DNA from: Perna viridis
Taxonomy: Eukaryota
Direction: 5' to 3'
Assembly: GCA_037379345.1 (NCBI GenBank)
Contig: CM074512.1
Location: forward strand, 36,890,001-36,954,000
Length of the DNA stretch: 64,000 bases
Positions 5,376 to 61,007 of the stretch are shown here, one piece after another; positions within the stretch are counted from its first letter, which is position 1; each line of letters begins with the position of its first letter. The notes under the pieces are model-generated. The model made no database searches and was not told the origin of the DNA. It was given only the letters and a program-made list of their open reading frames with translations. Both the position numbers and the translations under genes were made by a program.

Positions 5376-5691
5376 ATGTCTGAACCAGCCGTTGATGCAC
5401 CTGGAGATGATAAGACCGAAGATGATGCAAAGAGTACAAAAAGTGGCCAGAAAAGTCAGGCTGGTTCAAAACAGCCCTCCAGAGCTGGTTCTGCCCAGTC
5501 TGGTAAGAGTGGAAAAAGTAGTGGAAAACCTGCAATGGCAGCTACACCTGCTGGATCAGTAATGGGAGATAATCCTGCTGCTGATTGGAGACAGATGAGA
5601 AGAATTATTGCTGAGGATCCAGCATACTCTCTCGCTACTGTGCCTTTGATGGTAGACCTTTGTATCAAACATATTGTGAAAAATTTTGAAA
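5376..5691 (+). CDS. TCTE1: TCTE1 coding exon 1
   Basis: Acceptor at 5366-5367, ATG 5376, donor A|gtaagt at 5692. Confidence 0.93.
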
Positions 5692-16464: not shown

Positions 16465-16721
16465 TCATCTTTCCAACAATTCATGTAACAAATCTAGATG
16501 CCGAGGTGTGACATTTGGGTCACCTTGGGCCTTGTCCATTAAAGTAGAACCCATCTCTCCATACAGGGCATGAACTAGCGTGTGTGTGGCAGACCTGATA
16601 CTAGAGCTCCCGCCCTGAACTGCCCCACTACTGTTTGTGGCTCCCAGTAAATGCCACAGAAGCGGCAACACATGTAGCACCACTTGTTTCTGTTTCCGTG
16701 AGTATACAGTTCTCACCAAAT
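16465..16721 (-). CDS. TOGARAM1: TOGARAM1 last coding exon (TOG4 end)
   Basis: tttgcag acceptor, phase 1, DLVRTVYSRKQKQVVLHVLPLLWHLL... to TGA. Confidence 0.92.
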
Positions 16722-22700: not shown

Positions 22701-25700
22701 ACCATAATACATCCTTTTTTATGATGGTTTTGTTTTATTGGTCCTGATTCCCCATATATAGCATAAATGGAAGTGAGTACATGTATAGCAACCTAACTTT
22801 CAATAAAAATATGCATACTCGGTTATGATCTAAATATAAGTGATGGCTTAATATTGTTGGCAAATCATTTAACATAGTGCTGATCATTGTTGAATTGAAT
22901 TACTGTCAATATTTTATTTAGGTTGCATAATCATGTACACACAAACAAGTAGGTGGCAAGCCTCAACTTTGTCACCTCTTTTATAGCTTGATTAATAAAT
23001 CCATACTGTAAGATTGATAAATTCCAATAATAACATAGTTCACCTAGTTAAAGATAATTTACCAATGCTATTTTCTCATTAGGCTGATTGATTGTTAAAA
23101 ACCCTGCCCTATATTTTTTTTCTTATAAGGTTACAGTATGTTACGAATAAGGTCCTACTCCCTTTCTTCCCCGAGTTCTACTTACTGCATCCATCCTTTT
23201 CTGAAGATGCACAAATAAATCACCAATACAGACAATAGCTGATCTGGAAACTTGCGATCTCAAATTCTTCACCTAAAACATCAGAACATTTATTGATTTA
23301 ATAAAATTCTACTTTAACATCAAATGTCAGAACTAGAAAAAACAATGAAAAATTACAGGACACATGAGACAAATAAATGAAATAAAGTACGACCAATTTT
23401 TTATTGTTATGCATTTCCCTTAAAAATTTACAAAAATTACAACAAAAAACATTAAACTTTCTTCATAACATATTCATTTTATCGAAAGAGTTATGTCAAT
23501 TTAAGACAAACTTCTTCATAACATATTCATTTTATCGAAAGAGTTATGTCAATTTAAGACAAACTGGCCAAACTACAATTGTATTCACATAATTACGTAC
23601 CTCTTTTAAGATTGCCAATAATACATTATGTAGCTGATTTGAAAGCGTGTCTGGGTGAAACAAAGCCAGCCGACGAATACTGTTCAGACCATTACACTTG
23701 ACTTCCCTAAAAATTAATAGAAGTCAAATCAAACAAAAAGATAAACACAAAAAAAAAACCAATTAATACAACCTAATCAGTGCAGCTTTTGTTTTTTTCT
23801 ATTACAATGTTTAGTATTTTTTTTCAGTTTTTCGTTTGTCTATAAAGTTATACCAACAGAGACATTGATATTCCTAATTTTTACTTTTCTTCTGATTGAG
23901 TTATTATTAATTTTCCAACACCCAGACTGCACTCTACAACCTCCAATACCAAACTTACCATTCTTCATTTGAAACACAATTCATTGCATCACGGAGAGCG
24001 TGATCTGGGTCCCTGTAAGGCTGCCAGTCATCTGGGTTATCTGATTCTAACACAGATTTTGACGTTTCTGACGTTTGACTAGGACTGCAAAATTTACAAA
24101 CATGACTGATTAGTATCTTCAAAGTTTTCATTTTTATTTATAGAGGAACAGAACTGGCAACAACCTCAGCAACTAAAAACTATACTTTGAACTACTATGG
24201 GATATCCATATCAGTTCAAATACATAAAACATTGCAAAACTTACTAGCACTATGTTCTCGAAATCACAAATATCAATGCCAATTGAACCAGATAAAACCT
24301 GTTTCATTTAAAAGCTATTTTGCCTGTATTTCCTCATTATATATTTCATATCAGTAAAGTACTAACAGGATTACATGTATAAAGTTGAATGAAAACACTA
24401 AAAATTGATAATGTTTAGCAAACTTAAGTTTGTATCTTTTCAGTAATAAATGTGATAAGAATTACAAACTATGAATCACTAATGAATTAAAATATCCAGA
24501 CTTAGAGAAATTTACACAATTAGCCGAAGAATGAAAGCCATTCAACACATCAATATTATTTCATATTGTCACAAATCAATATGAAATATTACAAAAGGAT
24601 TCATTCAATAGTAAAAAAAACACAAAGCACTGAAATACTCACGATGTAACTATCATAGCAACGATGTTGCATAATAATTCATAAAAAATGTCATTGTTTC
24701 AGATGCAAATAATCCACTTACGTTTTCTTCATTGGTTTCCTTGGAGACAACGAAGGTGAGGCTCTGGTTTTCGGTGTACTAGAACCAGATGATGGGTTTG
24801 ATATTGATATTGCTGTAAATACAAAGAATAAACATTAATTTTCTCTCCAGCATAGACACCAAGCACAGATACCTGATCATTATGTATCATTAATGTACAT
24901 GGAAATGCTGCAGCTGCACTAATTTATCTCTTCTATTTCAGAAAAAAAACCCAAGAACTAATGAGTTTGTTTGTTTGTTGGGGTTTAACGCCCGATCAGC
25001 AATATTTCAGCTATATTCAGAACTAACGAGAAAACTCCATATAATTGAATAAGGCCATGGAAAACAGCTACTTTCATTAGATGTTCAAAAATGCAGGTTC
25101 CTGTGGATTGTTTGTAGGATAGAAATACAGATACAGATAAATCTTGCTTAAAATTAAAGAGAAAAAACAAAATTAACATATTTGCAAAAACACACTATAT
25201 CCCTGACCCACTAGGGCTAAAACTTGAAGTAAAGTTAGAAATACAATATGTAGTTCCAAAGAACCAACCAAGCTTTGGAAATACCATGAATTACGAAACT
25301 TCTAATAAAGCAAGAAATGATTTTTTTCTTTCTTTTTAACTTAGCCTATCAATAACTTTTATGTGAGACTTAAAAAGGGATTTCATCAAAAGATGGAATG
25401 TCCCTATGACACAAATGTTTCTACTATGCAACACCTTTTCCTATCTTAATTATAATCACATCATGAAAGTCTAAAAGAAATTGACATTTCAGCAGATTGG
25501 TGATGATGAAGGCTGATAATTTGTCAAACTGACAACTATACTACCTAAAAACTACAATATGATAATACGACTTTAATCAATACAACTAATGAACAGCTCA
25601 TATTTGAAAAAAAAACCTATTAAAACATCATTTAGTCAAAGAAGCACAATTACCACAAATACAAGCTGTATCTAATGTTACGTGCGAATCTCAAAATCAT

Positions 25701-40700: not shown

Positions 40701-43700
40701 ATGGTAAAAAATTGAATAGAATTAACACTCCATTAAATGTTCTTTCATACAGCAACAGTTCTAGCCAGATCAAACCAACCATGCCAGTCTATACAAAAAC
40801 ATGAATACATATCACAAAAATAAAAAAATTCTATAAAAAACTGCCATGAACCAGCATACCTCAAGGTGTGATTCTTCAGCCAGTGTACTCTCAAGAGAGG
40901 TAGCATAGGCACTGTCCCCATCATCCTCTCGCTGGTGACCGCTGAGTCTATCAGATGATTGTGCTGTGGTTATTGGTGGAACTTTCTTCGGTGTACTGCG
41001 CTTTGTTGCTGATCTTGCCAAGGCAGCTTTAGTGGGAATAGGGGATTCATCATCTTTACCTGTCAAGAAAAAAAGAATTCAGATGAAAATCATTTTTTAA
41101 TCTTTCCTTTCTCAAATCATGATAACAAAATGTACATGACCAATCTTTCAATTTTTTTTCATTCCAGTTTTAGATGAAAGAATAAGAATTAAAAAAGAGC
41201 ATAAAAAGTCCAAAATGTATGTAGAGATAATAGTAAATATGGTAAAGTCTTGGAAAATCTGGCCTTATTATTAGTTAAAATAATTACTGAAACTCAAATT
41301 ATAGTATCATAGTTCTGATCCTGTGAAAAAAAGTGAAAAACATACTGTTGTGGACAATTTTTCTCATTTCTCAAAAGTTAAAAAAAAACAAAAAAAAAAA
41401 AAAAAAACATGAAAATATTCAATGAATCATTCAGGACAACTCAGTAGTGAATTGTTTTTTTTTTAATGAGCCTGTAAGATAAGTAGGAGTACTACACATT
41501 TCAAGCACACAATCCAACTTCAGAATTAAATTCTATAAGCATATTTGTAATTCATTCAAAACAACTACAAAAGATTTAAATCTGCATGTTGTTTGATTTG
41601 CACTTTAAACAAAAAAAAGTTCCAAGTTTAATAAACTACAAAACATGAACTGTAAATTCTTCTAACTCCTGAATAATATGACCCTGGTTCACCAAGGTTT
41701 CCTATTTATTACTAAGAGGCATGCTTCTACCAGGTTATTCTTAAGTGTAGATCTATTATCACAATGAAACAAAATAAAATGCATAAGACATGTTTACATA
41801 ACACAGCCAATATACTTGGCAGGTTAAAGAAATATTATAAACAGTTCTATAGTAACTGGTGACTTTAATTACATCAAAAAAGTCATAAAGGAAAATGTGA
41901 ATAGTTCTACTTTAAAATTTACGAATGTACTTGAAGCCAAAACATTTAAATACTTTCTTAGAAGAAAGACGATTCATCGTGACTTACAAATTTTTCATAA
42001 TGAAGACAACATGAGAAAAATTTTGAACCATAGTAACTCTTGCAGCATTTGAGAAATAAGTCTGTAAATGACATCAGCAGGAAATCTGATAATCCAAGCT
42101 ATGAAAAGTAGTTTTAGACTGTTGACTTTTTTGTTAATCTATGTTTGCTTCTTCAAAAAAAAAAACAAAAAAAAATAGCTCCAGGTCAACAGGGAAAATA
42201 GTTTTTGGCAAGACTGTTGTGATGTTAACCTTCTATAGGAAGTGATTTTTAAGGGTTTTTCTGTTGACATTGGGAGTGTAACCAGCCTTACCTCTCCAAT
42301 AATCTTCATTGTATGTGTTAGGAGGGGTAACATCAGCTACAACAAAGTTAGTACAAGAGTTAATTCTACAAACACAGTTAGTGACTAAAAAATAAATAGC
42401 TAGAGTGGACATGATATATCCTAAAGGTAACATTAAGTCTGGCAAAATCACTTGGGTGAACTGTAACAAGGGTAATTCAAATTTTCTTTTTTATTCATTT
42501 CATGAAAATGTTTTAGTTATTTTATCAGTTCCGTCTACAAAATAATTTGATTGTTGGCATTATTGTTTTGATGTGTTACATCTAATAAGGAAGTGTCTAA
42601 AAATAAAGTAATTTTTACAAAAAATTACCCATATTACAGTTTTCATTAAGCAACAGATATCCTAATAATACCATAGAGTTTTAACAAAGATTATGAAGAG
42701 GCAACTAAACACTAACAAGGTAAAATCATCAATAATTAATCAGCACAAAATTCACTAGGGTATGAAAAAAAAGGGGGAGATTAAGTACCAAGAGGTCATT
42801 TACTAAAGCCATTGCAAGTATCTACTGTACATGATTATAACAAAGGTTATTTGTACTAATCATGTTTGTGTAAGTCCATAGACATGAAGACTACAATTAA
42901 ACTTCTGGATTTTTTTGTCTAAGCTAACTACACTCTATAACAACTGTTTGCTAGCATATCAAAACTAATCTTACACACTCTATTCTAAGGCTGGGGCTAT
43001 TAATGGGTATTTGGTATAACCCTCTGATAATCACTATTCAAAATATTAATAATGATATTTCAATAAAAAAAAAAATATCAAATTTAAGTGATGAAAAGCC
43101 AGCAATGAAAAAAAAAACATGCTAAAGAAGTATGCATAAAGCTATTCATAGTGTTGTCAAGAAGCAAGCCATCATTATTTCAAAAAATATATATCACAAT
43201 GATGGTAAATGACAAGATGGCTACCTTTCCTATCAGTTCATCAAATTTCCCATAAAAGTTTAATCAAAGGAATAGATGAAACAAGAGGGAAAAAATATAA
43301 GAATGAGAAAATTCGTTTTTCCAAACAATTTTGACAATCTACCAGTCCATCAGTTATTCAAGTCAAAGACCCACCTATATTTACAATCCAGGTGGAGTCT
43401 CACTACGTCTGCTTGTACTAAGTACGAAAGCAGTGAATTTAGCAGTACCACATAGAAACACCATTCTGTCAAGAGTGTTCCATTATTTTTAGAGCAAAAT
43501 CTACAAACTGTCTAGATTAGGATCATAATCACTCGTAACAACAATGGAAAACCATGAAATTAACTCTGTCATGTTGTTTTTTAATTAATGTTTGACATAC
43601 AATACAAGATTATGAACTTATCAATTAAAAGTAAAATGGACTAATATAAGGAGCTAAATTTAAAATATAAAATTGGGCTAATGATTACACATTATGTCAG

Positions 43701-46700
43701 TCATAGTTGTTGTATCTGATTCTAGGGGATTAATCAAATATCAGTATCAGAGATCACAATGGCACAGCATTGCACCAGATTCAGATTGGCAAAAGTGATT
43801 GATCACAACTTAGTGTAAAACACTCGAAGAAAAAGAATAACTCAGTAAGAAAAACACCTTATATCAACTGGCTTACTAAAATAAATGACATTTTGAATGA
43901 GTTTCAGACAATCACTTAGAAAGTGTACTAGTTACACAATGCAACTCAACTTTTAATTATTAGGAACTCATGCTATCAATTCATAAACACACTAACATAC
44001 TGATAGACCGACATTCAGAACTGCATTACAAACATCTTATTAGATTATTTTTTTCTCCAAAAATGTACACTAATCAAATGTAGTCTGCATTTGCATCGCT
44101 TCTAATGAAAGTTTAGTACAAAATCTTAAAAAAAAAATAAATAGAAATTTGCCTATAATGATCAAATTAATCCTGAATAACATATTTTGTCTACTGTCTT
44201 TGATCGAATCCATACTTTGGGACAACTATAAACATGGAGGAAAGATAAGTCATAAATTTATATGGAATTATTTCTTAAGAAATCCTATACACAGCTGGCA
44301 GCATGGTCTTAAACATAATTATTCAGTAGTCTTTCCTCAAATTCCTATTTTTAGACATTCTACTTGGGCATTATTTGAATGAGTAACAGGCACTGTGATA
44401 GTTAATATCAATTTGAACAATAAATTGAATACAAATAGGAACCAAAGTTCAGATTAAACAGTATAGTCATTCTAATTACAGATTTTAATTTATTTAGTAT
44501 TTGTAAAATGGAAATTCTTCAAATATTACAAGACATGGTTCACCCAGTTGCCAAGTTTCTTTGAACAACTTCTATTACTGAGTGTCACCTGCACAATGAG
44601 GGGCATGATAAAATGCACATCCAATTATGGCCATATCAACCTGTATTTGTTTCTAACAAATCATAACATATACAAATATAATTTCTCCTTATTGAAGATG
44701 TCTACTCAAGATGCAGTCATGGTGAATGGGAAATTTAAACAAAAATCAACAATATCAACTACTCAATTGACACAAAGAATGCTATAAATAACAAGTTATG
44801 TACCTATAATAGGCTAGGGGAAATGAAACAATATTAGGTCATAGAAGTTCAATGGGTTCAACCATTTAAAAATCTGTCTTTCTTCTTTCTTAATAAAAAT
44901 CTAAGCCAGTTATCTTGTGAACTTAGTTAACTACAAGAAAGCAAAATTATGACTCAACATAGCATAAGCAAAATAGCTCATTAAACAATTAAATGGAACT
45001 AAAAACTGAAGTGCAAGACTGGTCAACCATGTGTTAAGACAAAATAGTTCCAATACCAAAATAATAAAGTACCTTTACCCCATACAAGTCAAAGCAAGAT
45101 AAGAAATTCATCTACAAATTATTATTCACCAATTGAATTACTAAAAAAGCACTTATTGCTAAATGAATAAAGACCAGAACAAGAATTTACAAGCTAAGAT
45201 GACATTCCAGTTTACTGTGAAATGCACCCAATTCACTGCTTATTAAATTTCACTTAAACATCAAATTTATTAACTTCAAAATTAACTGTTTTTCTAGGTC
45301 TACTTAATATAGAATTTATGAGTATAGTTTCCCATTATAATAAGTTCCTTGACAGTTGGTGTCTTTCATCTGAAGTTATAAAATTTGTAAAATTGTAGAA
45401 ATGGAAATCCTACATCCTTTAAAGTAATCTACAGATAAAGAAATAATTTATTTTCTGCATGGGGGAAAATTAAGTGTTTTTACTTGTAGCAGGATCCTAT
45501 TAAGAGTTGTTATTATATGTTGTTGCGAATATACCGAAGTTCTGAAAATGTCGAATGTATATGTATGGGTCAAATGTCATTAATGGATTATGCAAATTAA
45601 GCTAAAATTTATTTTAAAACTTGCATTAAAAAGCTACATGTTCAGAGAGATGTGTTCAAAGTTAAATTTTCCATCAAATAAATGTGCATCAAGATTTTTT
45701 TTTCATATTTGCATTTACATTATTTCCCAAACCATTTTGAACACATCTCTTAACCATACTAACTCAAGCAAAAACCACACAGAGTACAATATAACACACA
45801 GCACAAAAATGTCTGTAAATCAAGACATAAAAAAAGACCATATGGTATCTCCAGACCTTATACTTATATTTACATATATATGTATATATGCATCAATTCG
45901 TAGCTTGCTTGGTCTGGCAAATTAAGCGCTGGTTTAAATCACATGCTATACACACTTAAAAAGTTCTAATGTAATACATCATTTTCAATTTTTTTTTTCA
46001 AGTGCTTCATTAAAAAAACATTATCATGTAACAGTACAAATTTTGACAACCATAATTTTAAAGACTTATCAACATCATTACAGTTTTTAAAATTTTTCAT
46101 TTGTGGCTTCATTTACTTAGAAATGACCCAGAAAATGAAGCTTTAACTTTGATAGCTGTAAAAAAATAAATGCCAAAATGTTCATATTATGGATTTTAAG
46201 TAGATTTCAATTCTTATAAGAAGTACAAAGTAATCTATCAAAATTTAACAAGAATGAAATTGATGCATAAAAGTGAACTTTAAAATAAGTAAAAATCGCA
46301 CACCTATAATATTGTGCATGCAATTTATACTTACGATTTCCCGAGACTTCGAGAAATGGTCGAACATGTGGTTTAAAATGACTGCTATGGTTGGATTTGA
46401 CTTTTGATTCTGATAAGAGAAAAGTGATGAAATACAACAATCCTGACCAAAGCTTCTGTATACCAGTAGTTACATATATTTATACAGAGAAAACCTTGAC
46501 AGATTTTGTACTGAACTTTCCCAATAACTATGCAGCAAGGAAAGTCATACAAACAAAAGACAAATTTTTAATACTTTACCCTAACCTTATCTTATCTACA
46601 ATGTACATATAAGACTACTGCACATGTATAACAAAACCTACATCAGTCTGTAAAACAATAAAAAATATCATAAGAAACTTAATATAATGATAAAGAGCAC

Positions 46701-49700
46701 TGTTTTATTTAGACTTCACCAGTACACTCCCTGTCTACTGGTAATTTACCAGTAACTGATTTTCTTAAATCATAATTTATGACCTCTTACATATAAGGCA
46801 AACAGCTCAATGCTACCTTTTCATTTAAATATTCATCAAATATTTTAAAATTAAAATCCTACTCTCAGTTTCCAAGACTAAAATACTTGGTCAAGAGAGA
46901 ACAATCCAATACTGGTGTACCCAACCAGATCTCTATCACTAAATCTCTTCCAGTTATTCTTTTCATTACAGATTCCAATTATAAACTCACAGTATTTAAT
47001 AGCCTTCAAAGAGATAATGCACCATAAGAATTGAATGACTTGTTACAAAAAGACAAGTAGGAAACAACAGGACAACCTCGTGGACTTTTTATATTATGTC
47101 TAAAGGAGCAGAAATTAAGAGGAGTTTCTATTTTCAATCTCATTGAATTACTGTTAAGAAATGTTACAAAATCCATCAAGGCCTTTAAAACCAAAAATAA
47201 ATTTGCACTGTCAGATTGTATTAATACTTCTACATATTCACCAAATTAAAAAAGTTTCAAAATAAGATTTTAAAATACAAATACATCGCTGAGGTAAGTA
47301 TCAGAGCAAGATATCAGAACAAAACAAGTGCTTTCAAGATCTTAATCTCCTTTCTTTAACACAGAAAATCACTTTGAATGTTTGTGTCATGACACAAAAT
47401 TTTGACTCTACCAGCAAATAGTCTTGTGTACCCCAGAAATAAGAAATCTTAAAACTCCAACACTTTAGAAAGATGTAAATTTTCAATATTTTTTCCTTTA
47501 AATCAACCAAACACAAGAATTAAAGAGACAAATTTAGAGCTTTTACAGAGCAAAGGTTCCCTACCCCACTTGGGAATATCAAAACTGCTTGGTTTTTGTG
47601 TAAACTTAGGGCTAAGAACTAAGACTATTAAAGAGGGAAATATAGACTACAAAAACAGATATACTTGTTACTGAGTTCTGTGGACTTAACACAGAACTTT
47701 CAAATGACGGTGTATCTTATTCACACGGAATACTTTAAGATTATAATTCAATTAAAGAATTCCAAAATTACTTAGATCATGTTGGTCTTTTTATTAGGAA
47801 TTTTAATATTTCATTTAACCTGAGTGTATAACATATTAGGAAAAATTTTCTCAATATAAAAAAACACCCACATTTTAATGTCTTGCTAAAATTCCATTCT
47901 GTCAAATTGTGTTTGTCATAATTGTTTTACTTACTACTACTTAACAAATTAAATAATTTACTTAAAACAGTTAACCTACTCATTTAGGGCTTAAATTTAA
48001 AATATTGGTAAAAAAAACATGTAATGTATTATCAAAACAGAGATGAAATGCAAGTGGCAAGGAAGAAGCAGATATGGACAAAATCTGAAGTGAAAATATA
48101 CAGTACAATAAAATATGAATTGGGACAGTAAAATTAGGATTAGGGGCAAATTCCCTTTAATATCACATCAACATAATTCTTTAAACATTAAAAACTTCTT
48201 GATTAATAAAAAGAATTTTAAAACCAATTACCCCAAATATTGAAGACATAAATAGACAATACTGGACAAGTGAATTAGTTTTAACAGTACATTATTGTTG
48301 ACTTAGTAAATCTATAATCTTAACTTAAAGTCTTGTTAAGGTGGTCAGTAAAATTTCTAGATAAACACTCAGATACCACTTCAAATGACAATATGGACAT
48401 GACTTTATTCCTTTCTAATCCACCCCCAGTTCAAACATGAAAAACCCCCCAATAAAAATTCAAACTGTAATGGTCAAATATAATGCAATCTGTTTTGTTT
48501 GTAGTTATTGAGTTGTTATCAATCGCATAATATCCTAAAATTATGACAGCTACCTACCCCACTTTTTATAAAAATAATTTTATGCATGAATACCACATCT
48601 CTTAAAAAAAATCACATTTAAAATATCAATTATGATTAAGTATTTTTAATTGAAAGCGTAATCAAGTCTCTATTCAACAGTTGTCTTGTTAAATATAAAT
48701 CAAGAAGAAAAGTCTATTGCTGAAATTTTGAATCACTACATTGACGTGATTTCTTCTTTTTAATCCTTTCTTTGTAGTGAGTTCTTCAGTAATCTGAATT
48801 GCTGTAGCTATGGATCTATACAAAAGGTAAGGTAACCAAAAATGTGTATTCAAATTAATTCTACCCTTACTGACTAATTAGCATTTGACATTGTTGGAAT
48901 GCTAAAATTAAACAGGTTTTGCACCAAGTGAAGATGAGAATTTTTAATCTTTGCTAAAACAGTTTATATATCAACTGACATACATGTATATTTGACCTTT
49001 TCAGTGATATATCTTAGAGTATGAAGCATCAAAGAAATGGCATCCTACATAAATGTTATCTTACTAGTTTTACAATTAATAAAATGGGATTTTGTGCTAA
49101 AATTGCTACCCAATAGACTTCGTGGGTTCCGATATTGAATCAGACTGTATGAAATTCTTCATTTTACAAGATACATTTTTGTATCAATAACATGTCCATA
49201 TTTATTTGTAAAATTAAGGTAAAACCATTATTTCTATAGTTTCATTTAGCTTTTTTTTTCATATAAATAAGTGCATTAAATTATTCACAATTAGTGCACA
49301 ATCAATTTATCTATTACAACATATACAAATAAATGGATAATTACCTTTCGAGACTGAACAAACTAGTCCCATCCCATAACCAAAAGTCATAATTACTCCA
49401 CAAGGTACATTCTACAAAATCTCAGATTCACAAGTTCATGAGAATCTGCAAGTTCTTATCACTTTTCTGCAATTATGTGATTTTTGTATTACTCAAAAAC
49501 TATGTTCCCAATCCTGTAACTATATTTCTTATTGTATTGTACTTTCTGTATCCAAGAATTACAAACGGAAAATAAACAGACAATTAAGTAATTTTCATTA
49601 ATCTTGTTTCGATCCAGCTAACCGTGTTACCAAATGGAGTCAATGAATGCAAATTATCCGTATAGTTAGAATTGTAATTTTCCTCCCTCTTCTGAACCAA

Positions 49701-52700
49701 TCAAGCATGAATTATTACAGTAGAACCAATTAGAAATCAATATCATCCCATATAGAACTCTTTTCTCTAGAGGTAAGGAAAGTCCCTCTTACACTGATCA
49801 CCTTCAATACAAAAAGAACTGTTGATATTGTTAACATTTACTTTTATCTTCGTAAATAACATGTTTAAATCCCAGGATCCACCTGAAAACCGTGATTTAA
49901 ATATACACCTAATCAAACACTACAATGGTCAATTTTTATATTAAGCACAGAAACTACCACAACAGACTGCCATACAAATAGCAGAACTAAGTAAAGCATA
50001 ATTCCTATCTTTTTGGTAACATTACAGGCAGATTCAGTTCCAATCAAATCTTCAACCAGAAAAAAATTCCTATGATTCCTGGAGATCAATTTACCATATT
50101 TGACTTCCACAGAATCTACACAATAGGCTTAGAGACATGAGACAATGAATTTCAATATAATGAAACTTAACAGTGTAACATATGAAGTTATTAAATTTCT
50201 GAAAACAGTGTTAAATGTAACAAAGAAGCATAAAAATATAACACCAGTTCATATTTCCTACTCATTTGAATATACTCTGGAATTTCAGGGGAAGGTCTTA
50301 AGCTGAATTTTATCGTATTTCATATATTAATTCTGTAACCAGAATATTTACCTCACTTTAAAAATTGTAAATAAGGATTAATTCTTTCAATCACAAATTA
50401 AATATCGCCTGAATATAGCTGAAATATTGTTGTTCGGGTGTTAAACCCCAACAATCAATCAATCAATCAATCACAAATTAAATATCGCCTGAATAGAGCT
50501 GAAATATTGCTGCTCGGACATTAAACCCCAACAATCAATCAATCAATCACAAATTAAATCTGACCTTTGCAAAAAAGCTATGGTTTGACTTATTTATTGC
50601 ATTACTTAAAGAAAATGGATCTCATGCTGGAATAGAACCAAGTTAAGGATACAATGACTGAAGAAACTTCATTATGACCAAATACAAAAAAGGGGCACAC
50701 ACGCACACACAAAATAATGTAGGACACAACAAAGTGACAAGCTCCTTCTGATCAAGATTAAAAAAAAATAATATAAAACATCAAAATAAGTAATAATAAC
50801 TTGTTGACTTTGATAGTATAACAGCAGAGATCTTAGTCAGGACTTGAACCCATCACCTTTTGTCATTAACCATATTTAATTCTTAAACCCACATTGAGAA
50901 AATATCAAATTTGTAGTTAATCTGGTATTTGATCCAGTACCAATTATCTCTCTCCTCTGAGATTTCTACACAGCTAGGATACCTCATACAAAAGTTTGAA
51001 ATTTGTCTACAATTTACAACCCAACATTCCAACAGGTAACAAGCTTAACTTTCAAATAACAATACCAAATAGTGAAATATTAAATGTAAAATGTTTCCAT
51101 CACTTGGTTGAAAATGATCCAGATAAAGTAGTGGCAACATAATTGAGTCCTTATTCAAACAGCAAATAACCTCCAGCAATGTGAACCTTACTAGTAATAC
51201 AGCTTTAAAATCTGAGGCATATTCTAGATTATTTTGATTGTTTTTTAACAGTTAAAATTGCATTTAGAGCTTTTAACTCAAACACAGAAATTTACCATTT
51301 CTTGTCACAATATCACTTCATTCTGTAACACAAGGCTAAAGTTAAAAATAAAATATATGCCAGTATATGAATACTAATACTGACCAATCTGATACATGTA
51401 GCTGAAAGTAATAAAGGACAAATGCTTTATAAGGCTACTCTATGCAAAATTTATATAAATAACACACTCTTTAGATTTTGAGGAAAATATATAGTGTTTA
51501 TACACTATCCCTTTATCATTAGGGAAATGAAATATGCCAAGCCGAGGAAAGCCAATGGCTTGTTAGGTCAGAAGTTAGTGACCAACATAAATTTGACCAT
51601 CTTCAAATAAAAGCTGTCTGGAGGTACTTCCTGGTTGTAATAATGAGATATCATCTTGGCAACCTTTTATCTAGTTGTAACCTATGTTTGAAATCCTACC
51701 AATATTCACCACAATGATGAAAAGAGACAACACAAATGGAGGGATTGGTAACCTATTAAAACACAGTAACCCTAGTTATAAGTGGACAGCTGAAATGAGA
51801 AATAAGATCTACTCATACCTATAAGAGCAATTTTAATAAGTTAAACAGTGCCAAATAAACAATATGTCAAGATTGAATAGCATTTTTTCAATGTCCAAAA
51901 CAGACCCCCTTCCACCATAATGGTCTCTGATAATGATTTAATAAACAGTTCATTACATGTTATTAGCAAGCTAAATAAACTCTAAGGTGGTACAAATGAA
52001 ACCCTTCATTGATCAAATTTCTTTTCACATGACATTAATGAAATTTCTCAGTCCATTTATCAATCTGAAGACCTAACACCCGAAAAAGAAGCATTCATTA
52101 AAGATGTCATTACTGGCATTCAAATATCAATAAAAAAAATCCTTACTAAATTAACAATATTGCGGGGTTCACAGTGAACACACCTAATATTGTGTCAACA
52201 TCACAGCTGTTGTGATAAATATAGATACAAAAGATGAAGAATGATGTAAGAGTACTCTATATATCTCTAATTTAATTGTCTTAAAGCCAGAATTCTGATT
52301 AAATATTCAATGACTATTACAGTACTGAATAGCCATACAAATAGGAAAAAATCAAAGGCAGATAACTCCTTAAAATTTGAAAATTATCAAGAATAAAAAA
52401 AATGCAATCATTCAATAATTAAAGTAATAATTGTTTTTTATGTAGATTTTAGTTCTGACTTTTCTTTTCATCATATACATGTACTATAATATTGAGTCAC
52501 TTGTATCTAAGTAATTGCACCATTTGAAATATCATGTAACTACATGTATGTAATCACATGCTTTTAAAATTTATTACTTTTTTTTAAAGTTTTTTGCTGC
52601 CATAATCTTGTATTATACTACATAACTGATGAACTGACAAGTTTGATGTCAATTAATCCATAAAATGAGAAAAAAATAACATAAGAAAAGATATAGTAAC

Positions 52701-55700
52701 ATAATGACATTGTGATTTTACATGATTCTGGTTTAAATAACTATTAAAAATTGAGAATTATCTAATTAATGTCAAAAATGAATAGCTATCATTTGTTGTA
52801 CTGTAACTGACACAAATATGACACAACTTGCATATGATCAAACTTTCCTATTTACAGTGAAAATTACATAGTAATACTTTTTAATGCTTTGTCCTCAAAA
52901 TTTAAATGACGATCTATTGTCAAAGCACAGAAAAGATTATAGGGTGTTGCTTAAGACTCACTTTGTTACACCTAAATGTTTCTTGTATCTAATGTCTCAA
53001 GTAATATTTCTTTCAGACATAATTTTATTGAACGAATTGTGATTGAATTTACTTCAAGGTTATTTTCTCCCACGTCAATCTATGCTGCTATGTGCATGTG
53101 AGCCCAAGTTTGACTTCCCAATAGAAAATTCTCAAAATAAAGTTTCAATGCTGTCTTTAAAAGAATATAAGGAAAATGAATATGGTGAACATGTCAAAGA
53201 GACAATAACACCATCAGGAAGAAAATGTCAGTTCAAGGCCACAATATTAGGTGACCATGAGGCAGCATTGTTTGTTGCTTCAATACAACAGCAAACTCAA
53301 ACCTTGGCTTTGATTACTTTGTTGAAGAATACATGTCTAGGCTTAAAAACACCAGAGGTTTTTCATAATTCTGCCTAAAGTGAAAATTGTCTTTCAGTTT
53401 AAGGGTTCTTTTATCATTACTTTTTGAAAGACTGACTTTTTACTGGAATTCTATACATGAAGTATGATAATAGTTCAGCCCAATCTGATAAAGTCAAAAA
53501 AATGTTGCAATTGAATGATGGAATGAATGCTCATATAAAATCTGTATGGGAGGAGTATACAAATAAGTTCCAGCCAGCCTATGTGCACTTACATGGCTAA
53601 ATTTACCATATAACAGGACATACATGTATTGGCTGATGATCAATTCGATAGCCGGTAAATAAGATGCTAGATACTTCAGAATAATTAACAAGGAATTATC
53701 ACTGACAAAAACAGTAGACAACAGAAGTGACACAATCTGATGGATTCCTATATACATGTTACTAACACAAACTCCCAATACACCAATTCAAAATGCCTAA
53801 ATCTGTCAGTTCAAAGACTTGTATACTTCATGGTTGATCAGCGTTTTACTTCATTCAATCTACTGATAAAACTAACACAGAACCTATCAAATATTTATAA
53901 TGGCTGGTCAATTAACGTAATTGCAGTGCTAGAATTTTAATGGCCGACTCAATTCCCCCTTGCGAATAGTGCTTGCCTGCAACAAACTCATAAATAGTGT
54001 TGTTTTCAAGCCAAGTTCTTAATCAATCCAATAACATGAAAAATTGAGTAAGGTAAATTATTTATTCTAGTCCCTAAGCAGTGTGACATTAAATGATTCT
54101 ACTTCAACCCAGGACAATCTGAGACAATGCCTTCCTGTTCTAAGCTTAATATAGATAAAGACAATAAGACTACAGAACACAAAGTGACATTAACCTCCAA
54201 TCACTGCCTCATAAATATTTTCATTAATATCAACACACATCAATATCGTCAAAAGAGATGTCAACTATCATAATACTACAATATCACAATCCTGGCAGAA
54301 TGCTTAACCAATTAACATCCGCTCCCAGCACCCTATAGAAACCCATATCTGAAATCAATCACTAATTGAGCAAGACTCTGCAAAAATGAATGAAATTTAC
54401 CAACAAAAATCGAACATTCACTGGAGCAAGGAGAAGAATTCATCTATGAATTGAATTTAGAGCATTTAAACAAATTGAAGGTTACAGCAGTCACGTCACC
54501 GTCATACCTTGTTTTCTGATGATCTGTCGATGGTAAGGTAAACTGTGTTGGAAGTAAACAGTACAGAATGTCTTAGAGCAATATTTGTCATCAAATTTAA
54601 AATCTAATCAATTTTCAAGTGCTACTTGTTCAATCAATTTAGTCACATGCTTTCAAAATCTCAGCTGGAAATGTCCAAAAGTGGAAAATAAATTGGCTCA
54701 CTGCATTATGATTTTCTTCCTCACCCCATGTTCATATCATTTTTTTTGTTAACTGACTCTCCACAATGTTTACTATATTTATGGCTTACAAACAAATTAT
54801 TATGTGAAAGCTGCAAGGTCATCTGTTTGCAAATACATTTGAATTAATTAAAAGCAATGTAAGTAAATATTTAGTTTATAAAGAAATGTTTAGTAACAAT
54901 GTGTGAATTACAACTGTAAAAAGCAGTTAGTGCTTAATGAATCAACATATGAGCAACTGGTACAAACATACATGTATAAATTGGGAGTTATATAAGTAAG
55001 AAAATTAAAGGGATAGTTTTAATGGATTAAAAAATTATTAAAAAATATGAAACATAGCAAAAGGAGGTCAAAAGGACAATTCAGAGAACTGAAGGGTACA
55101 AAACATAACAGCTACAAGGAAATCTAAATAACTGTAGAAAACAAGAAAAATGAAAGCTGTATTAGGATGTCTACAGGTGAACAAAGGTATGGGCCACCAC
55201 CTCTAACATCAAAGCAGCCTGCATTACCTCTTTCTGTTTCTGCTAAATCTAAACTTCCCAGTACACTGGAGCTAATTTTCGTACTTTGAATCTTCTTTCT
55301 ATTAAGGTAGTTCTGTGTGTATGAGCCTATGAGACAATAGCAAAGCATTGTGAATTAGTTAAGTGCAAAAGTGTTCAAAGCATTCATTAACATGTGAAAA
55401 CAATAGAAAATCAGCAAGAAAGTGCCTGCTTATGGTAATTTCCAGCAGAGTTAACTATTAAGTAAGTTAAGCAAGATTAATTTCACAGAAAATAATATTT
55501 GAACTCATGAAAGCAGATCAGTCTTTTAACTTGCAACTAGCTTTTATATTCAACTGGAAATGTGCAAAATAATCTGTTTTTATTATATTTTTATCTTAAT
55601 AAGCTTTTGCTAAAAGCAGACAAAACAGAAATCCAGCCGTAACTTTTCACAGGGGTATGACAATGGAAGGTTTCTAGTCATATAAGAACCATAAGAATGT

Positions 55701-58700: not shown

Positions 58701-59256
58701 GTAGTTGAGAGTTTGGGTTTAGGTTTATCAAGCATTACATAATTCTATCATCTGGACTGAATTCAATTTTAGTTTACTTTGAGAGTAATTATAAAAATGT
58801 GTAAAACTGGCATCTTTGATATCAACCCATGATACTAAGCACAGGTCTGACAGGCAAGTGGAGGAAAAAATTAAGAAAAATGCTGACTTCTTTTATTTAG
58901 ATCTTTCCTAAACAGAAGATAATTAAATATTTTTTTCTAATTCAACAGTTAATCCTAATCATCCTACATCTACACAGAATGATAGATTCCCAGCTTCATT
59001 TTTATATCTCCTATGTACATGTAAGTGAAAAATTATTGTAATCAAAATTCACTGAATGCAGTATTTATGGAAACACAGGTGCAAGAGGTTTTGAGTTTGA
59101 ACACTTTGTACCTGGTTCTTGCTGGGACTCCTCAACAGCATTTATCCCAACTACAGTAATTCTACGTTTAGGAACTCGTTTACCATTGTTTATACTGTCT
59201 TGGCCACCGTCTTCACCCCAAGTGTTTCTTGCCTTTGGGGGACCTTCATTAAAAGA
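16465..59256 (-). CDS. TOGARAM1: TOG array regulator of axonemal microtubules 1 (crescerin-1/FAM179B), 3' part: linker + TOG3 + TOG4; 5' end beyond the window
   Basis: In-phase GT-AG chain: 59256-59112, 55326-55228, 46409-46335, 42336-42292, 41059-40860, 36889-36690, 35479-35202, 33310-33203, 29516-29338, 27786-27588, 24812-24722, 24084-23959, 23706-23601, 23272-23186, 22681-22533, 21743-21585, 20639-20513, 20078-19978, 19722-19542, 18789-18573, 17060-16974, 16721-16465. TOG signatures: W-E-x-K..GL..IRRLA.FH, EVKNLRSQVSRSA, GESNGFIREDVDK, LDSSPETRY.GRK, DW.DR..GI, IFDKFLPRLQDPNSKVNLYALQ. Confidence 0.92.
16974..17060 (-). CDS. TOGARAM1: TOGARAM1 exon (TOG4)
   Basis: 87 nt phase 1/1, DGGLLLQPLANQAQ. 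Confidence 0.9.
17649..18518. mobile_element. Degraded pogo/Tc2-like non-autonomous DNA transposon
   Basis: Left end accatatatacttaagtataag...tataagtc; right end tataagtcga...gcgaatatacacgata; resembles the TACCGTATATACTCGAGTATAAG TIR class. Confidence 0.5.
18573..18789 (-). CDS. TOGARAM1: TOGARAM1 exon (TOG4)
   Basis: 217 nt phase 0/1, IFDKFLPRLQDPNSKVN. Confidence 0.93.
19040..19311. mobile_element. AGGC...GCCT-ended MITE (Kolobok-like by termini)
   Basis: ta|aggct... and ...tttggcct|aa ends; similar ends at 17468-17555, 27324-27548, 62118-62366. Confidence 0.45.
19542..19722 (-). CDS. TOGARAM1: TOGARAM1 exon (TOG4 start)
   Basis: 181 nt phase 2/0, SNDWKDRHKGITQLL. Confidence 0.92.
19978..20078 (-). 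CDS. TOGARAM1: TOGARAM1 exon (TOG3-4 linker)
   Basis: 101 nt phase 0/2, GLGEMPSESSSARG. Confidence 0.9.
20513..20639 (-). CDS. TOGARAM1: TOGARAM1 exon (TOG3 end)
   Basis: 127 nt phase 2/0, YNGRKILNLLMGHPDFNKMLEKHLP. Confidence 0.92.
21585..21743 (-). CDS. TOGARAM1: TOGARAM1 exon (TOG3)
   Basis: 159 nt phase 2/2, HKNVNVRRTTS...DRILP...DSSPETR. Confidence 0.93.
22533..22681 (-). CDS. TOGARAM1: TOGARAM1 exon (TOG3)
   Basis: 149 nt phase 0/2, GESNGFIREDVDKVL. Confidence 0.93.
23186..23272 (-). CDS. TOGARAM1: TOGARAM1 exon (TOG3)
   Basis: 87 nt phase 0/0, VKNLRSQVSRSAIVCIGDLF. Confidence 0.93.
23459..23565. repeat. Perfect 53-bp tandem duplication
   Basis: cttcataacatattcattttatcgaaagagttatgtcaatttaagacaaact starts at 23461 and again at 23514. 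Confidence 0.92.
23601..23706 (-). CDS. TOGARAM1: TOGARAM1 exon (TOG3)
   Basis: 106 nt phase 2/0, (W)EVKCNGLNSIRRLALFH. Confidence 0.93.
23959..24084 (-). CDS. TOGARAM1: TOGARAM1 exon (TOG3 start)
   Basis: 126 nt phase 2/2, DWQPYRDPDHALRDAM. Confidence 0.9.
24722..24812 (-). CDS. TOGARAM1: TOGARAM1 linker exon
   Basis: 91 nt phase 1/2, S/P/K-rich, gtaagt donor. Confidence 0.85.
24966..25020 (-). mobile_element. 5'-truncated SINE/LINE 3' tail insertion
   Basis: CTGAATATAGCTGAAATATTGCTGATCGGGCGTTAAACCCC(AAAC)n; TSD agaactaatgag (24954-24965) / agaactaacgag (25019-25030). Confidence 0.8.
27324..27548. mobile_element. AGGC...GCCT-ended MITE
   Basis: aggccattta...ggttctca at left, tgagaacc...ggtggcct at right (inverted). 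Confidence 0.55.
27588..27786 (-). CDS. TOGARAM1: TOGARAM1 linker exon (E/K/R-rich coiled coil)
   Basis: Phase 0/1; alternative in-frame donor ending at 27597. Confidence 0.88.
29338..29516 (-). CDS. TOGARAM1: TOGARAM1 linker exon
   Basis: 179 nt phase 1/0, poly-T acceptor, gtaagc donor. Confidence 0.85.
33203..33310 (-). CDS. TOGARAM1: TOGARAM1 linker exon (symmetric, probable cassette)
   Basis: 108 nt phase 1/1, ends GIGVIGK(G), gtaggt donor. Confidence 0.78.
35202..35479 (-). CDS. TOGARAM1: TOGARAM1 linker exon
   Basis: Phase 2/1, SPFESKPKLAR...DVQVVGKGY; alternative in-frame donor ending at 35190. Confidence 0.85.
36690..36889 (-). CDS. TOGARAM1: TOGARAM1 linker exon
   Basis: 200 nt phase 0/2, MMHSLKSIRSSASKKK, Ser-rich. 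Confidence 0.87.
38073..38111 (-). CDS. TOGARAM1: Candidate 39-nt TOGARAM1 exon (MMKYLKSIHGGPK), duplicate of the start of the next exon
   Basis: ttttaacag acceptor, AAG|gtttgt donor, phase 0/0, 19/24 nt identical to the first 24 nt of exon 36889. Confidence 0.55.
38754..38922. mobile_element. Short Tc1/mariner(pogo)-type MITE
   Basis: TIRs ctgtgaaacctgtct / agacaggtttcactg followed by TA; sibling at 39407-39581. Confidence 0.7.
39407..39581. mobile_element. Short Tc1/mariner(pogo)-type MITE, sibling copy
   Basis: ta|cagtgaaaacctatct ... gggttcagtttatacaggtagccctg|ta. Confidence 0.62.
40860..41059 (-). CDS. TOGARAM1: TOGARAM1 linker exon
   Basis: 200 nt phase 1/0, ESPIPTKAALARSA. Confidence 0.87.
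42292..42336 (-). CDS. TOGARAM1: TOGARAM1 45-nt symmetric exon (DVTPPNTYNEDYWR)
   Basis: tttgttgtag acceptor, GAG|gtaagg donor, phase 1/1. Confidence 0.72.
46335..46409 (-). CDS. TOGARAM1: TOGARAM1 75-nt symmetric exon (SKVKSNHSSHFKPHVRPFLEVSGN)
   Basis: Strong pyrimidine tract ttttctcttatcag, gtaagt donor, phase 1/1, open. Confidence 0.7.
49345..49411 (-). CDS. TOGARAM1: Candidate TOGARAM1 alternative exon or internal start exon (..MTFGYGMGLVCSVSK)
   Basis: Donor AAG|gtaatt in phase 1 with downstream exons; in-frame ATGs at 49390 and 49372; acceptor ttttgtag at 49413-49412. Confidence 0.5.
49690..49735. promoter_or_regulatory. Paired CCAAT boxes upstream of the candidate internal start exon
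   Basis: gaaCCAATca (49697) and gaaCCAATta (49726), 29 bp apart, about 300 bp upstream (minus orientation) of exon 49411-49345. Confidence 0.35.
50388..50559 (+). mobile_element. Head-to-tail dimer of a truncated retroposon tail with triplicated target site
   Basis: Two copies of atcgcctgaat..agctgaaatattg...ttaaaccccaa(caat)n; caatcacaaattaaat occurs at 50388, 50468, 50544. Confidence 0.82.
54508..54542 (-). CDS. TOGARAM1: Candidate 35-nt TOGARAM1 exon (asymmetric)
   Basis: tttacttccaacacag acceptor, AAG|gtatga donor, open in all three frames. Confidence 0.45.
55228..55326 (-). CDS. TOGARAM1: TOGARAM1 99-nt symmetric exon
   Basis: tgctttgctattgtctcatag acceptor, GAG|gtaatg donor, phase 1/1, SYTQNYLNRKKIQS...AETER. 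Confidence 0.72.
57079..57142. repeat. Short imperfect tandem duplication
   Basis: atgattct.aca.atgaccacagtaatct present twice. Confidence 0.75.
59112..59256 (-). CDS. TOGARAM1: TOGARAM1 linker exon
   Basis: cttttctttttcag acceptor, CAG|gtacaa donor, phase 0/1, SFNEGPPKARNTWGEDG...RRITVVGI. Confidence 0.82.
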
Positions 59257-60932
59257 CTGAAAAAGAAAAGGTAAGTCAATAAAATTGTTGTTGTTCACTT
59301 GCTGTTGTTATAAACTGAAAAAAAAGTCAAGTATTTCCCATTTCTAAGGGCATAACTCAGCTCTGGTAAACCCATCTGGAGTATTTTGAACAATACATTT
59401 ACTTCACCAACCCTGCCTGGCAAGTGTGAATCAATATGTACAAGTATAATAAAATGTATAACTACAATAAAACTTCTGTTTTTCCTGATTCATGACATAC
59501 AAAGGTACTGAACATTGATGATAGAAAGTAGCAAAATGATACATGTACAATTGTATAAAAATGTAAGTACATGTATCAATTTACAAGTATAAATTCAACA
59601 TTCTGCATCTTCTGTACTACTGGCATTTAGTATGAAAAATTATAAATTGCACTGTACACACAAATACATCATAGAGTGACTTGTTAAGTGGACTTGAGGT
59701 TTGTTGTACCATTTACTGTTTCAAAGTTTAGGGAATGACGATGAAAAAATAACTCTTTATTTAAATGCAGAAGAATTAACTTGAAAACACATGAAAAATA
59801 GAATTTGTGATATAATTTTTAGATGTTAAAAAAAATACAAATGGCATAAGTATACATTAAAACCCAATTAAATTAAGACCAAAACTGTCAGTACCAACAT
59901 GCCTATAAAAAAGATCACAGATTCAAAATTTTGAGGACAAAGAATGCCCAAAAAATGGACCAAATTTCCAAGACATTATTCAGTAGTTATATAGTTTAAA
60001 TCAAATTTCTATAGTAAATAAAAAGACATACAACCAACAATACAAGAAGAAAAACTCAGTGAAGGTCATTAAAATGCTTGTTTTATACCATTACAAATCA
60101 CTGACAAAATATACTTTTGTTAAAACAAAAATGTATGTTTTACAAGTAAAATATAAAAAAAATGACAAACTTTTTTAAAAAGTTGTAGTGACACATTAGC
60201 CCTTCATATTGTTTGTTCACGATGACATTCAAAAACGTGAAATACCATTTTGAAAGCAGTATTTCCATTGGAAAGGACCACAGTCATTTAATAACAAGTA
60301 TAAATATTGTCGATTTTTCTAACAAGAACTCATGTTTATGATGACAGCCGAACAATGGGTTTTAATGTTATAACAAAGCAAGTCCTACACGTTCCTTTTA
60401 AAATATACAACTGTAAAAATGTTTGGCTATATTTGGTATACATTGTAAATTGTCATGGCCATGGTTGAACTGATCTGATTCAAATGATTTCAGTTTGATC
60501 TTTGAATGGATTACTGCGAAACCATAATATCTGTCAAAGTGGAAAAAAAATACATTTGTGTTAACTTGACAGACAAAAACAAATCATTTGGAGTTTTTTT
60601 TAATTCATAGTACACTTCATTTACACAAGTCTTTGAAATTAGAACCAGTCCACATGCCAATGCTGGTAATAATAGAGATGGACTTGAAGAATTTTTGCTT
60701 CCAAGCCAATGTATCTTATATAAAATTCTTTTCAGAGTGTACCTGTTCATACAGTATACATGCATGTGTACCAGACACCTTCACAATACGAAATGATTGC
60801 AAAAGTCAGAATGTCTGACTTTTGATTGAATGATTGACTGGATTGTTGTTTTCCAGGTTTCCCAACATTTACATATACAATAACACACAAATCACCAACA
60901 TGTATTGATTTATTTCAAGTAATATTTATTAC

Positions 60933-61007
60933 CTCAAACAAGTCCTCTGCATAAGGGTGTACTCTTCCAACTTTACAAAGGGCAGGAATACAAGCCCACA
61001 CACACAT
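60933..61007 (-). CDS. TOGARAM1: Candidate alternative first coding exon of TOGARAM1 (MCVWACIPALCKVGRVHPYAEDLFE)
   Basis: ATG at 61007 with A at -3 and an in-frame TAA 6 codons upstream; exactly 25 codons to donor GAG|gtaata; phase 0 matches exon 59256; more GC-rich than flanks. Confidence 0.62.

What the first reader, a model, noticed from the sequence alone, without database searches (positions are those of the whole stretch)
49345..49411. Second candidate start exon encoding a myristoylation/palmitoylation-type N-terminus (MGLVCSVSK)
Seen: GGG ATG G (49372) opens MGLVCSVSK and meets an AAG|gtaatt donor in phase 1, joining exon 46409 to give MGLVCSVSKESKVKS.... Two CCAAT boxes 29 bp apart lie about 300 bp upstream. 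Established: MGxxxS is the N-myristoyltransferase consensus; a nearby Cys plus basic residues gives dual acylation, and myristoylated ciliary cargo is delivered by UNC119/ARL3. Caveat seen: an in-frame ATG 6 codons upstream (49390, MTFGYG) would mask Gly2, so start-codon choice could act as a lipidation switch. The exon could instead be internal (see the 35+67 nt finding).
Basis: partly seen in the sequence, partly recalled or inferred. Interest (0 to 1): 0.72.

Follow-up and report, generated by a model that had tools for sequence, protein, structure and literature searches.

The report
Lipid-anchor start exon of mollusc crescerin
In this mussel, the gene for the cilia microtubule regulator TOGARAM1 (crescerin) splices in a small inner start exon, also found in oyster, abalone and snail gene models, that drops the front half of the protein and adds a conserved motif predicted to carry two fatty acids, so the short form would likely tie microtubules to a membrane.

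Summary
The exon is real. It lies in a linker intron of the TOGARAM1/crescerin gene (minus strand) of a mytilid mussel. Putative RNA contigs of two studies splice its donor (49345) to 46409 or to 41059 and run on unspliced 530-680 bases upstream. It behaves as an alternative first exon that gives a TOG1/TOG2-less, linker+TOG3+TOG4 isoform. Models of Mytilus, Crassostrea, Haliotis and Biomphalaria carry the same start, M-G-[LIV]-x-C-S-x-S, and 0 of 118 long isoforms contain it. A second inner start exon (61007, Cys-rich) and Cys-rich starts of arthropod and unnamed crescerins suggest a recurrent membrane-anchored form. Acylation, start choice, location and UNC119 cargo status are untested. The CCAAT pair is unremarkable and lies inside the transcribed stretch. 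Verdict: new variant of a known kind.

The parts
49345..50028 (-). Alternative first exon as far as contigs cover it (5' end not fixed; contigs cannot show a start site). Long leader with 11 upstream ATGs, then 46 coding bases
   Evidence: X1 record 7 (49345-50028 then joined to 46409), X3 record 20 (49341-49874 then joined to 41059), X10 records 10-11 (49398-49824); ATG list
49388..49390 (-). Upstream in-frame ATG (M1, MTFGYG; A at -3). A start here buries the Gly
   Evidence: MTFG also in M. californianus X18 and C. angulata X6; a Met 7-8 codons up in two gastropods
49346..49372 (-). M2 ATG and codons for MGLVCSVSK: predicted N-myristoylation (Gly2, Ser6) and S-palmitoylation (Cys5) motif
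   Evidence: M-G-[LIV]-x-C-S-x-S in 5 of 5 species that show the exon; lipidation inferred
49339..49344 (-). Phase-1 splice donor GTAATT
   Evidence: joints 46409-49345 (X1) and 41059-49345 (X3), both GT-AG
49393..49410 (-). Five-codon upstream ORF whose stop ends 2 bases before M1
   Evidence: a role in start choice is inference
49363..49377 (-). Out-of-frame ATG and four-codon ORF between M1 and M2, overlapping M2
49697..49730 (+). Two CCAAT words 29 bases apart; inside the transcribed stretch, not shown to be promoter elements
46335..46409 (-). 75-base phase 1-1 cassette exon, first acceptor used by the start exon
42292..42336 (-). 45-base phase 1-1 cassette exon
40860..41059 (-). 200-base linker exon, second acceptor used by the start exon
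55228..55326 (-). 99-base linker exon of the longer isoforms; spliced past the start exon
59112..59256 (-). Linker exon (alternative donor at 59184) of the longer isoforms; the long form comes from the TOG1-TOG2 exon whose ATG lies 5.4 kb beyond the window end (G000:C2:36959442)
60933..61007 (-). Second inner start exon, Cys-rich (MCVWAC... with RVHP), phase-0 donor
   Evidence: 19 of 24 residues identical to the start of M. californianus X16/X17; not covered by my RNA call
16465..24080 (-). Exons of TOG3 and TOG4, shared by all isoforms

Best explanation
The 49345 exon is spliced as an alternative first exon of the mussel TOGARAM1/crescerin gene and gives an isoform without TOG1-TOG2, whose conserved M-G-[LIV]-x-C-S-x-S start is predicted to be myristoylated and palmitoylated and would likely tether the TOG3-TOG4 half to a membrane. 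Steps. (1) Shown: the donor is spliced to the linker exons at 46409 or 41059, and the sequence above it is transcribed unspliced. Inferred: an internal promoter near or above 50.0 kb. (2) Shown by exon mapping: the product keeps most of the linker plus TOG3 and TOG4 (about 1,030 aa by the Mytilus model) and lacks TOG1-TOG2. From papers on the mammalian protein: TOG1-2 bind ARMC9 and help polymerise tubulin; linker+TOG3-4 bind the microtubule lattice. (3) Inferred: ribosomes that leak past M1 start at M2, Met is removed, NMT adds myristate to Gly2 and a DHHC enzyme adds palmitate to Cys5. Those that start at M1 make a six-residue-longer form that cannot be myristoylated. (4) Inferred: the acylated form holds microtubules against a membrane, most likely in cilia or sperm tails, outside ARMC9 control.
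For: Splicing in putative RNA contigs of 2 of 4 runs laid (X1, X3; studies P1, P2), cover without the joint in a third (X10). Motif in RefSeq models of four other molluscs, M, G, C, S6 and S8 invariant and position 3 aliphatic; it always sits at the start of a TOG1/2-less model and in 0 of 118 long forms. The residues above M2 do not align between bivalves and gastropods (spacing 6, 6, 6, 7, 8), while the motif stays in register, as expected if M2 is a true start. An in-frame Met within 8 codons has a chance of 0.135 per site in this gene's introns and is seen in 5 of 5 species (about three independent lineages). A second Cys-rich start exon at 61007, millipede MGCCLSS (GAB6029733.1) and 18 of 27 unnamed TOG3 proteins with Cys-rich starts point the same way. 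Precedents: HK1S MGQICQ, Gly2 myristoylated and Cys5 putatively palmitoylated (PMC4736023); HCK start-codon choice changes acylation (PMC4599235). Domain roles: PMC4642858, 10.1101/817213.
Against: No lipid, start-site or localisation data. All four database models start upstream of M2 (three at the nearby Met, Haliotis 41 residues up), none at MG; M1 has A at -3 and MTFG is conserved between mussel and oyster, so M1 may be the main start. An out-of-frame ATG in good context lies 5 bases before M2 and would compete with it; the leader has 11 more ATGs. The runs are only guessed to be RNA, are contigs, and no DNA run was laid as control; 6 joints were not shown. The motif was seen in models of only 4 species; other short models start differently (Ostrea, Saccostrea, Ruditapes, Mercenaria, Mya, Elysia), and none was seen in scallops, unionids or octopus among the cluster members listed (large clusters were listed only in part). 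Ciliary location is assumed from the family.
Confidence: 0.6

Rival explanations
1. The exon is a real first exon, but translation starts only at M1. The product begins with a short hydrophobic stretch and is at most palmitoylated on the Cys, without myristate; the inner Met-Gly is kept for another reason.
For: M1 comes first, has A at -3, and a nearby upstream Met is present in 5 of 5 species; MTFG is shared by mussel and oyster; the gastropod stretches above M2 are Leu-rich. The sister start exon at 61007 has cysteines but no Gly2.
Against: An inner Met and Gly, with Ser exactly at position 6, invariant across two classes is hard to explain without initiation at M2; the upstream stretch varies in length and sequence.
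Confidence: 0.2
2. Only M2 makes a working protein. The upstream AUG is a conserved brake on translation or lies above the start sites used in the relevant tissue, so there is no two-form switch.
For: The motif is better conserved than the extension; the leader is full of short ORFs, one of which stops 2 bases before M1.
Against: M1 is in frame in 5 of 5 species, and four residues after it are identical in three bivalves, which suggests selection on the extension itself. No DNA of relatives was available to look for synonymous changes.
Confidence: 0.14
3. The exon is an internal cassette (acceptor at 49411 or 49395) of the long isoform, and the contigs that run upstream are unspliced precursor.
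For: AG at 49413-49412 follows a T-rich stretch; an AG before 49395 would give a 51-base in-frame exon. Runs X1 and X3 do hold much intronic sequence, and 6 joints were not shown.
Against: No listed joint enters the exon; contigs of three studies cross 49411 unspliced; upstream donors (59184, 59112, 55228) splice past it; the 67-base form shifts the frame; 0 of 118 long mollusc proteins hold the motif or its other frame.
Confidence: 0.05
4. Chance intronic sequence with a cryptic donor.
For: The donor is of modest quality (GTAATT) and MGxxxS/T is at chance level in the window.
Against: Spliced in two studies and conserved in four other species.
Confidence: 0.01

Closest known systems
TOGARAM1 / FAM179B / Crescerin1 (CHE-12) family
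   Same: The host gene: TOG1-TOG2 in one large first exon, linker, TOG3-TOG4; best PDB match 5dn7 FAM179B, E 2.9e-78; TOG4 exon 92-93% identical to Mytilus TOGARAM1-like proteins.
   Different: The papers read describe the four-TOG protein and no lipid-anchored isoform; palmitoyl/myristoyl appear in 10.1101/817213 only as an artificial PalmMyr tag.
Crescerin2 / TOGARAM2 / FAM179A subfamily (TOG3-TOG4 only; PMC4642858)
   Same: Same domain content as the short isoform.
   Different: In mammals a separate gene; here made from the one locus by inner start exons (a TOG3 exon search found one match in this genome), and it carries an acylation-type start.
RefSeq models XP_052097643.1 (M. californianus X18), XP_052701993.1 (C. 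angulata X6), XP_046334282.1 (H. rufescens X5), XP_055878834.1 (B. glabrata X5)
   Same: The same exon and isoform, already predicted by annotation.
   Different: All begin upstream of the Met-Gly, so the motif is hidden at positions 7, 7, 42 and 8; their names say nothing of it.
Sperm hexokinase HK1S (PMC4736023)
   Same: An isoform-specific N-terminus with Gly2 and Cys5 that moves an otherwise differently placed protein to the plasma membrane.
   Different: Unrelated enzyme; lacks Ser6; shown by experiment, whereas here it is predicted.
HCK p61/p59 (PMC4599235)
   Same: Two in-frame starts on one mRNA give different acylation and location.
   Different: Both HCK forms are myristoylated and differ in palmitate; here the longer form would lack myristate altogether, and the starts are only 6-8 codons apart.
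CLASP2 beta/gamma isoforms (PMC6035287)
   Same: A TOG-array protein with natural isoforms that lack the first TOG domain.
   Different: Only TOG1 is lost. That CLASP2 beta has a palmitoylated N-terminus is my recall; no call confirmed it.

Membership tests
TOGARAM1/Crescerin1 gene | TOG1 and TOG2 like those of FAM179B at the N-terminus | tested here: met
   692-codon frame at G000:C2:36957367-36959442 matches 5dn7 and TOG profiles; 93% to Mytilus over 636 aa
TOGARAM1/Crescerin1 gene | C-terminal TOG3 and TOG4 | tested here: met
   exons 24080-16465 match Mytilus TOGARAM1-like models exon by exon; single exons were too short for Pfam (0 of 4)
Alternative first exon | Donor spliced to downstream exons | tested here: met
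   2 of 4 runs, two different acceptors
Alternative first exon | No upstream exon spliced in | tested here: inconclusive
   none among listed joints, contigs unspliced for 530-680 bases, 0 of 118 long proteins hold it; but 6 joints not shown and contigs drop rare forms
Alternative first exon | Capped start sites and a promoter | not testable with these tools
   only contigs available; no full X-box found by pattern, two half-sites only
Crescerin2 subfamily (by domain content) | TOG3 and TOG4 only | tested here: met
   short isoform lacks the TOG1-TOG2 exon
Crescerin2 subfamily (as a gene) | Separate locus from Crescerin1 | tested here: not met
   same locus; one match for the TOG3 exon in the genome (the first look is loose)
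N-myristoyltransferase substrate | MGxxxS/T sequence | tested here: met
   5 of 5 species at M2; consensus as given in PMC4736023
N-myristoyltransferase substrate | The Met before the Gly is the initiator | tested here: inconclusive
   in-frame Met 6-8 codons upstream in 5 of 5; no ribosome data
Dually acylated (myristate + palmitate) proteins | Cys within the first residues, kept by selection | tested here: met
   Cys5 in 5 of 5
Dually acylated (myristate + palmitate) proteins | Fatty acids actually attached | not testable with these tools
   needs labelling or mass spectrometry
UNC119/ARL3 ciliary cargo | Myristoylated N-terminus binds UNC119 and is released by ARL3 in the cilium | not testable with these tools
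   no test run; the paper I sought on residue preferences is not held

The most novel reading that the evidence does not exclude
Molluscs keep, across bivalves and gastropods, a pair of AUGs 6-8 codons apart that lets one mRNA make both a free and a myristoylated-palmitoylated TOG3-TOG4 crescerin. The acylated form is one of the unidentified links between axonemal microtubules and the ciliary membrane, and the Cys-rich starts of the second mussel exon and of arthropod crescerins show that a membrane-anchored crescerin is an old, overlooked branch of this Joubert-syndrome protein family.
Probability: 0.3. Interest if true: 0.78.

Novelty: new variant of a known kind. Interest (0 to 1): 0.56.

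Why it matters
TOGARAM1 is a Joubert-syndrome protein known as a soluble four-TOG regulator of ciliary microtubules. A conserved isoform that drops the ARMC9-binding half and gains a lipid anchor would turn it into a membrane-to-microtubule tether. Ciliary caps and microtubule-membrane connections are described as poorly understood (PMC6406257, passages), and this gives a concrete candidate with simple tests (G2A, C5S, M1 and M2 mutants). The hidden second AUG also shows how automatic annotation can mask lipidation motifs. The general devices (lipidation by first exon or start codon) are known, which caps the score.

Tried and rejected
No run was on record as RNA; the runs laid are guessed RNA contigs. 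X9 gave no cover of the exon: no inference drawn. No DNA-run control and no full joint list around 49411 were obtained, so rare upstream splicing stays open. Two metagenome scans for relatives' DNA found nothing (0 matches to a degenerate motif pattern; 600 pattern hits, 0 confirmed), so synonymous change in the six upstream codons could not be tested. A homolog search with the first 120 residues of the oyster isoform gave 11 proteins and no new short isoform. Among 147 new family representatives none had MGxxCS, 9 had another Cys-rich start. CCAAT pair as promoter evidence: rejected. RFX X-box: only half-sites at 50020 and 49631. Internal 67-base or 51-base exon: no support. CLASP2 beta palmitoylation as a precedent: not found in searches or in passages of PMC2171674 and PMC6035287; PMC4200515 lists CLASP2 only as a post-translationally myristoylated substrate, a different thing. 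Two papers sought by id are not held. The Atlas gave no taxon for the unnamed MCC proteins (nearest clusters arthropod or chordate). No structure or complex was predicted: the question is lipid attachment, which these tools do not model. Earlier notes of the scan: nothing near this place or by sequence.

Full report
1. What the region is. The window is AT-rich animal DNA. The minus strand holds a TOGARAM1/FAM179B/crescerin gene: TOG3-TOG4 exons at 16.5-24.1 kb, a chain of linker exons, and a 692-codon frame for TOG1-TOG2 that starts 5.4 kb beyond the window. That frame matches solved FAM179B TOG2 (5dn7, E 2.9e-78) and TOG profiles. One TOG4 exon is 92-93% identical to Mytilus proteins, so the animal is a mytilid mussel. 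A TOG3 exon search found one match in the genome.

2. The observation. ATG 49372, MGLVCSVSK, the phase-1 donor AAG|GTAATT at 49345 and the in-frame ATG at 49390 are as described. Joined to 46409 or 41059 the frame stays open. An in-frame stop lies 8 codons above 49390. MGxxCS occurs once in the window (0.13 expected), while MGxxxS/T alone is at chance (7 against 5.8). The CCAAT words are on the + strand, are common (149 sites, 14 close pairs) and fall inside the transcribed stretch.

3. RNA. One search listed 24 runs, none on record as RNA; four guessed-RNA contig sets from four studies were laid on 40500-60400. X1 has a 712-base contig that runs 50028 to 49345 and joins 46409. X3 has a 558-base contig from 49874 that joins 41059. 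X10 covers 49398-49824 without the joint; X9 gives no cover. Donors at 59184, 59112 and 55228 splice straight to 55326, 46409, 42336 or 41059, past the exon, and an X10 contig goes on for about 2 kb beyond 59259, as the long form would. No listed joint enters the exon, but 6 joints were not shown, contigs drop rare forms, and no DNA run was laid. GT-AG joints at the predicted places make RNA the likely source.

4. Conservation. Of 50 hits to the TOG4 exon and 30 clusters looked up (large clusters listed only in part), four short models carry the exon: M. californianus X18 (MTFGDG MGLVCSSSN), C. angulata X6 (MTFGDV MGILCSVSA), B. glabrata X5 (MTVTLLL MGVSCSKSE) and H. rufescens X5 (...MILLLQPL MGVGCSNSA). 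With the window this gives M-G-[LIV]-x-C-S-x-S in 5 of 5. In the Mytilus, Haliotis and Biomphalaria models it is followed by the equivalent of the 46409 exon. Among 192 proteins of the mollusc set it occurs only in these four short models and in 0 of 118 proteins of 1,300 aa or more. Other short models start differently: Ostrea and Saccostrea (MGHLDQ, MGVIDY), Ruditapes and Mercenaria (MGFLEN), Mya, Elysia; several begin Met-Gly but lack Ser/Thr6 and Cys, and I draw nothing from them. Bivalves and gastropods split more than 500 million years ago (recalled).

5. Two starts. Every one of the five species has an in-frame Met 6, 6, 6, 7 or 8 codons above the Met-Gly. The chance per site is 0.135 in this gene's introns, so three independent lineages give about 0.002; this is rough, since relatives share ancestry. 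The stretch between the two Mets is conserved within bivalves (MTFG) but not with gastropods; the motif after M2 is conserved in all. I read this as both AUGs being kept. In this species M1 has A at -3, M2 has G at -3 and +4, a five-codon ORF stops 2 bases before M1, and an out-of-frame ATG lies 5 bases before M2. Which start wins cannot be told from sequence. That closely spaced AUGs share initiation, and that re-initiation just after a short ORF is poor, is recalled knowledge.

6. A recurrent theme. A second inner start exon at 61007-60933 encodes a Cys-rich start with RVHP, 19 of 24 residues identical to M. californianus X16/X17, with a phase-0 donor that fits the acceptor at 59256. A profile search of 1.84 billion representatives (best 150 of 2,758 listed, 147 new) gave 9 with Cys-rich starts, all 511-737 aa: a millipede protein starting MGCCLSS (GAB6029733.1) and unnamed proteins starting MCC or MGC. 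Of 27 relatives of one of these, 18 start that way; it has TOG3 only, 37% identical to the mussel domain. Their taxa are unknown, and homology of these starts to the mussel exons was not shown (one search did not align them).

7. How it likely works. In mouse crescerin, linker+TOG3-4 binds the microtubule lattice and TOG1-2 add little to this (PMC4642858, section 12 and passages). Human ARMC9 binds the TOG1-TOG2 fragment (10.1101/817213, passages). The short isoform is thus a natural linker+TOG3-4 protein that would not bind ARMC9. Gly2/Cys5 is the arrangement shown to place HK1S at the plasma membrane (PMC4736023, passages), and start-codon choice sets acylation in HCK (PMC4599235, passages). 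I therefore put 0.6 on an acylated, membrane-tethered lattice binder made from M2 beside an unmyristoylated M1 form; 0.2 on M1 only; 0.14 on M2 only with M1 as a brake; 0.05 on an internal exon; 0.01 on noise. Shown: exon, splicing, domain loss, conservation. Inferred: promoter, start use, lipids, location.

8. Known or new. The exon is already in RefSeq models of four relatives, but these start upstream and hide the motif. Searches for TOGARAM1+isoform+myristoyl (3 papers), crescerin+palmitoyl (5), togaram+palmitoylation terms (20 of 1,196 listed) and FAM179B+first exon/acylation terms (15 of 169 listed) showed no lipidated crescerin isoform; I saw listings and abstract starts, and read passages of 10.1101/817213, PMC6406257 and PMC13406575. 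Subscription journals are mostly missing, and I read no supplements; Table S1 of PMC4642858, which lists crescerin homologues, may include such short forms. CLASP2 beta/gamma lack TOG1 (PMC6035287, passages); a palmitoylated CLASP2 beta is recalled and unconfirmed. The label RVxP as a ciliary targeting motif is recalled. Verdict: a new variant of a known kind, interest 0.56.

Noticed in passing
window 60933-61007 (-): A second inner start exon with three Cys in the first 11 residues and RVHP; matches the start of M. californianus X16/X17. A candidate palmitoylated isoform. RVxP as a ciliary signal is recalled.
   Followed up: partly
P0165, P0227, P0233, P0241, P0242, P0248, P0249, P0251, P0258, P0344-P0356: Short TOG3-only crescerins with MCC/MGC starts: one millipede (GAB6029733.1), the rest unnamed. 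P0248's start loosely resembles the 61007 exon.
   Followed up: partly
window 40860-59256 (-): The linker is built from phase-1 cassette exons (99, 75, 45 bases, and a donor shifted by 72 bases) that are mixed freely in the contigs; M. edulis has 44 or more annotated isoforms.
   Followed up: partly
window 50405-50590: A short high-copy repeat (AATC runs and a repeated unit) with very deep cover in all four runs; a related unit lies near 24950-25020. It sits about 400 bases above the longest contig end of the exon.
   Followed up: no
window 5368-8507 (+): A leucine-rich-repeat gene with a 389-codon frame (Pfam LRR_6); it looks like the ciliary protein TCTE1/DRC5 (recalled, untested). It lies tail to tail with the crescerin gene across about 8 kb.
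   Followed up: no
L006-L008 (G000:C2:36995000-37023000, +): Exons of a TPR-containing gene that resembles the ciliary CFAP70/TTC18 (recalled, untested), about 35 kb above the crescerin start: possibly a small cluster of ciliary genes.
   Followed up: no
L009 (G000:C2:37027900-37029800, -): Broken reverse-transcriptase frames of a retroelement, Penelope-like by look.
   Followed up: no
window 1087-1425 (-): Start of another gene (MFPRPKPGETEDDLL...), resembling the RPAP1 N-terminus (recalled, untested).
   Followed up: no
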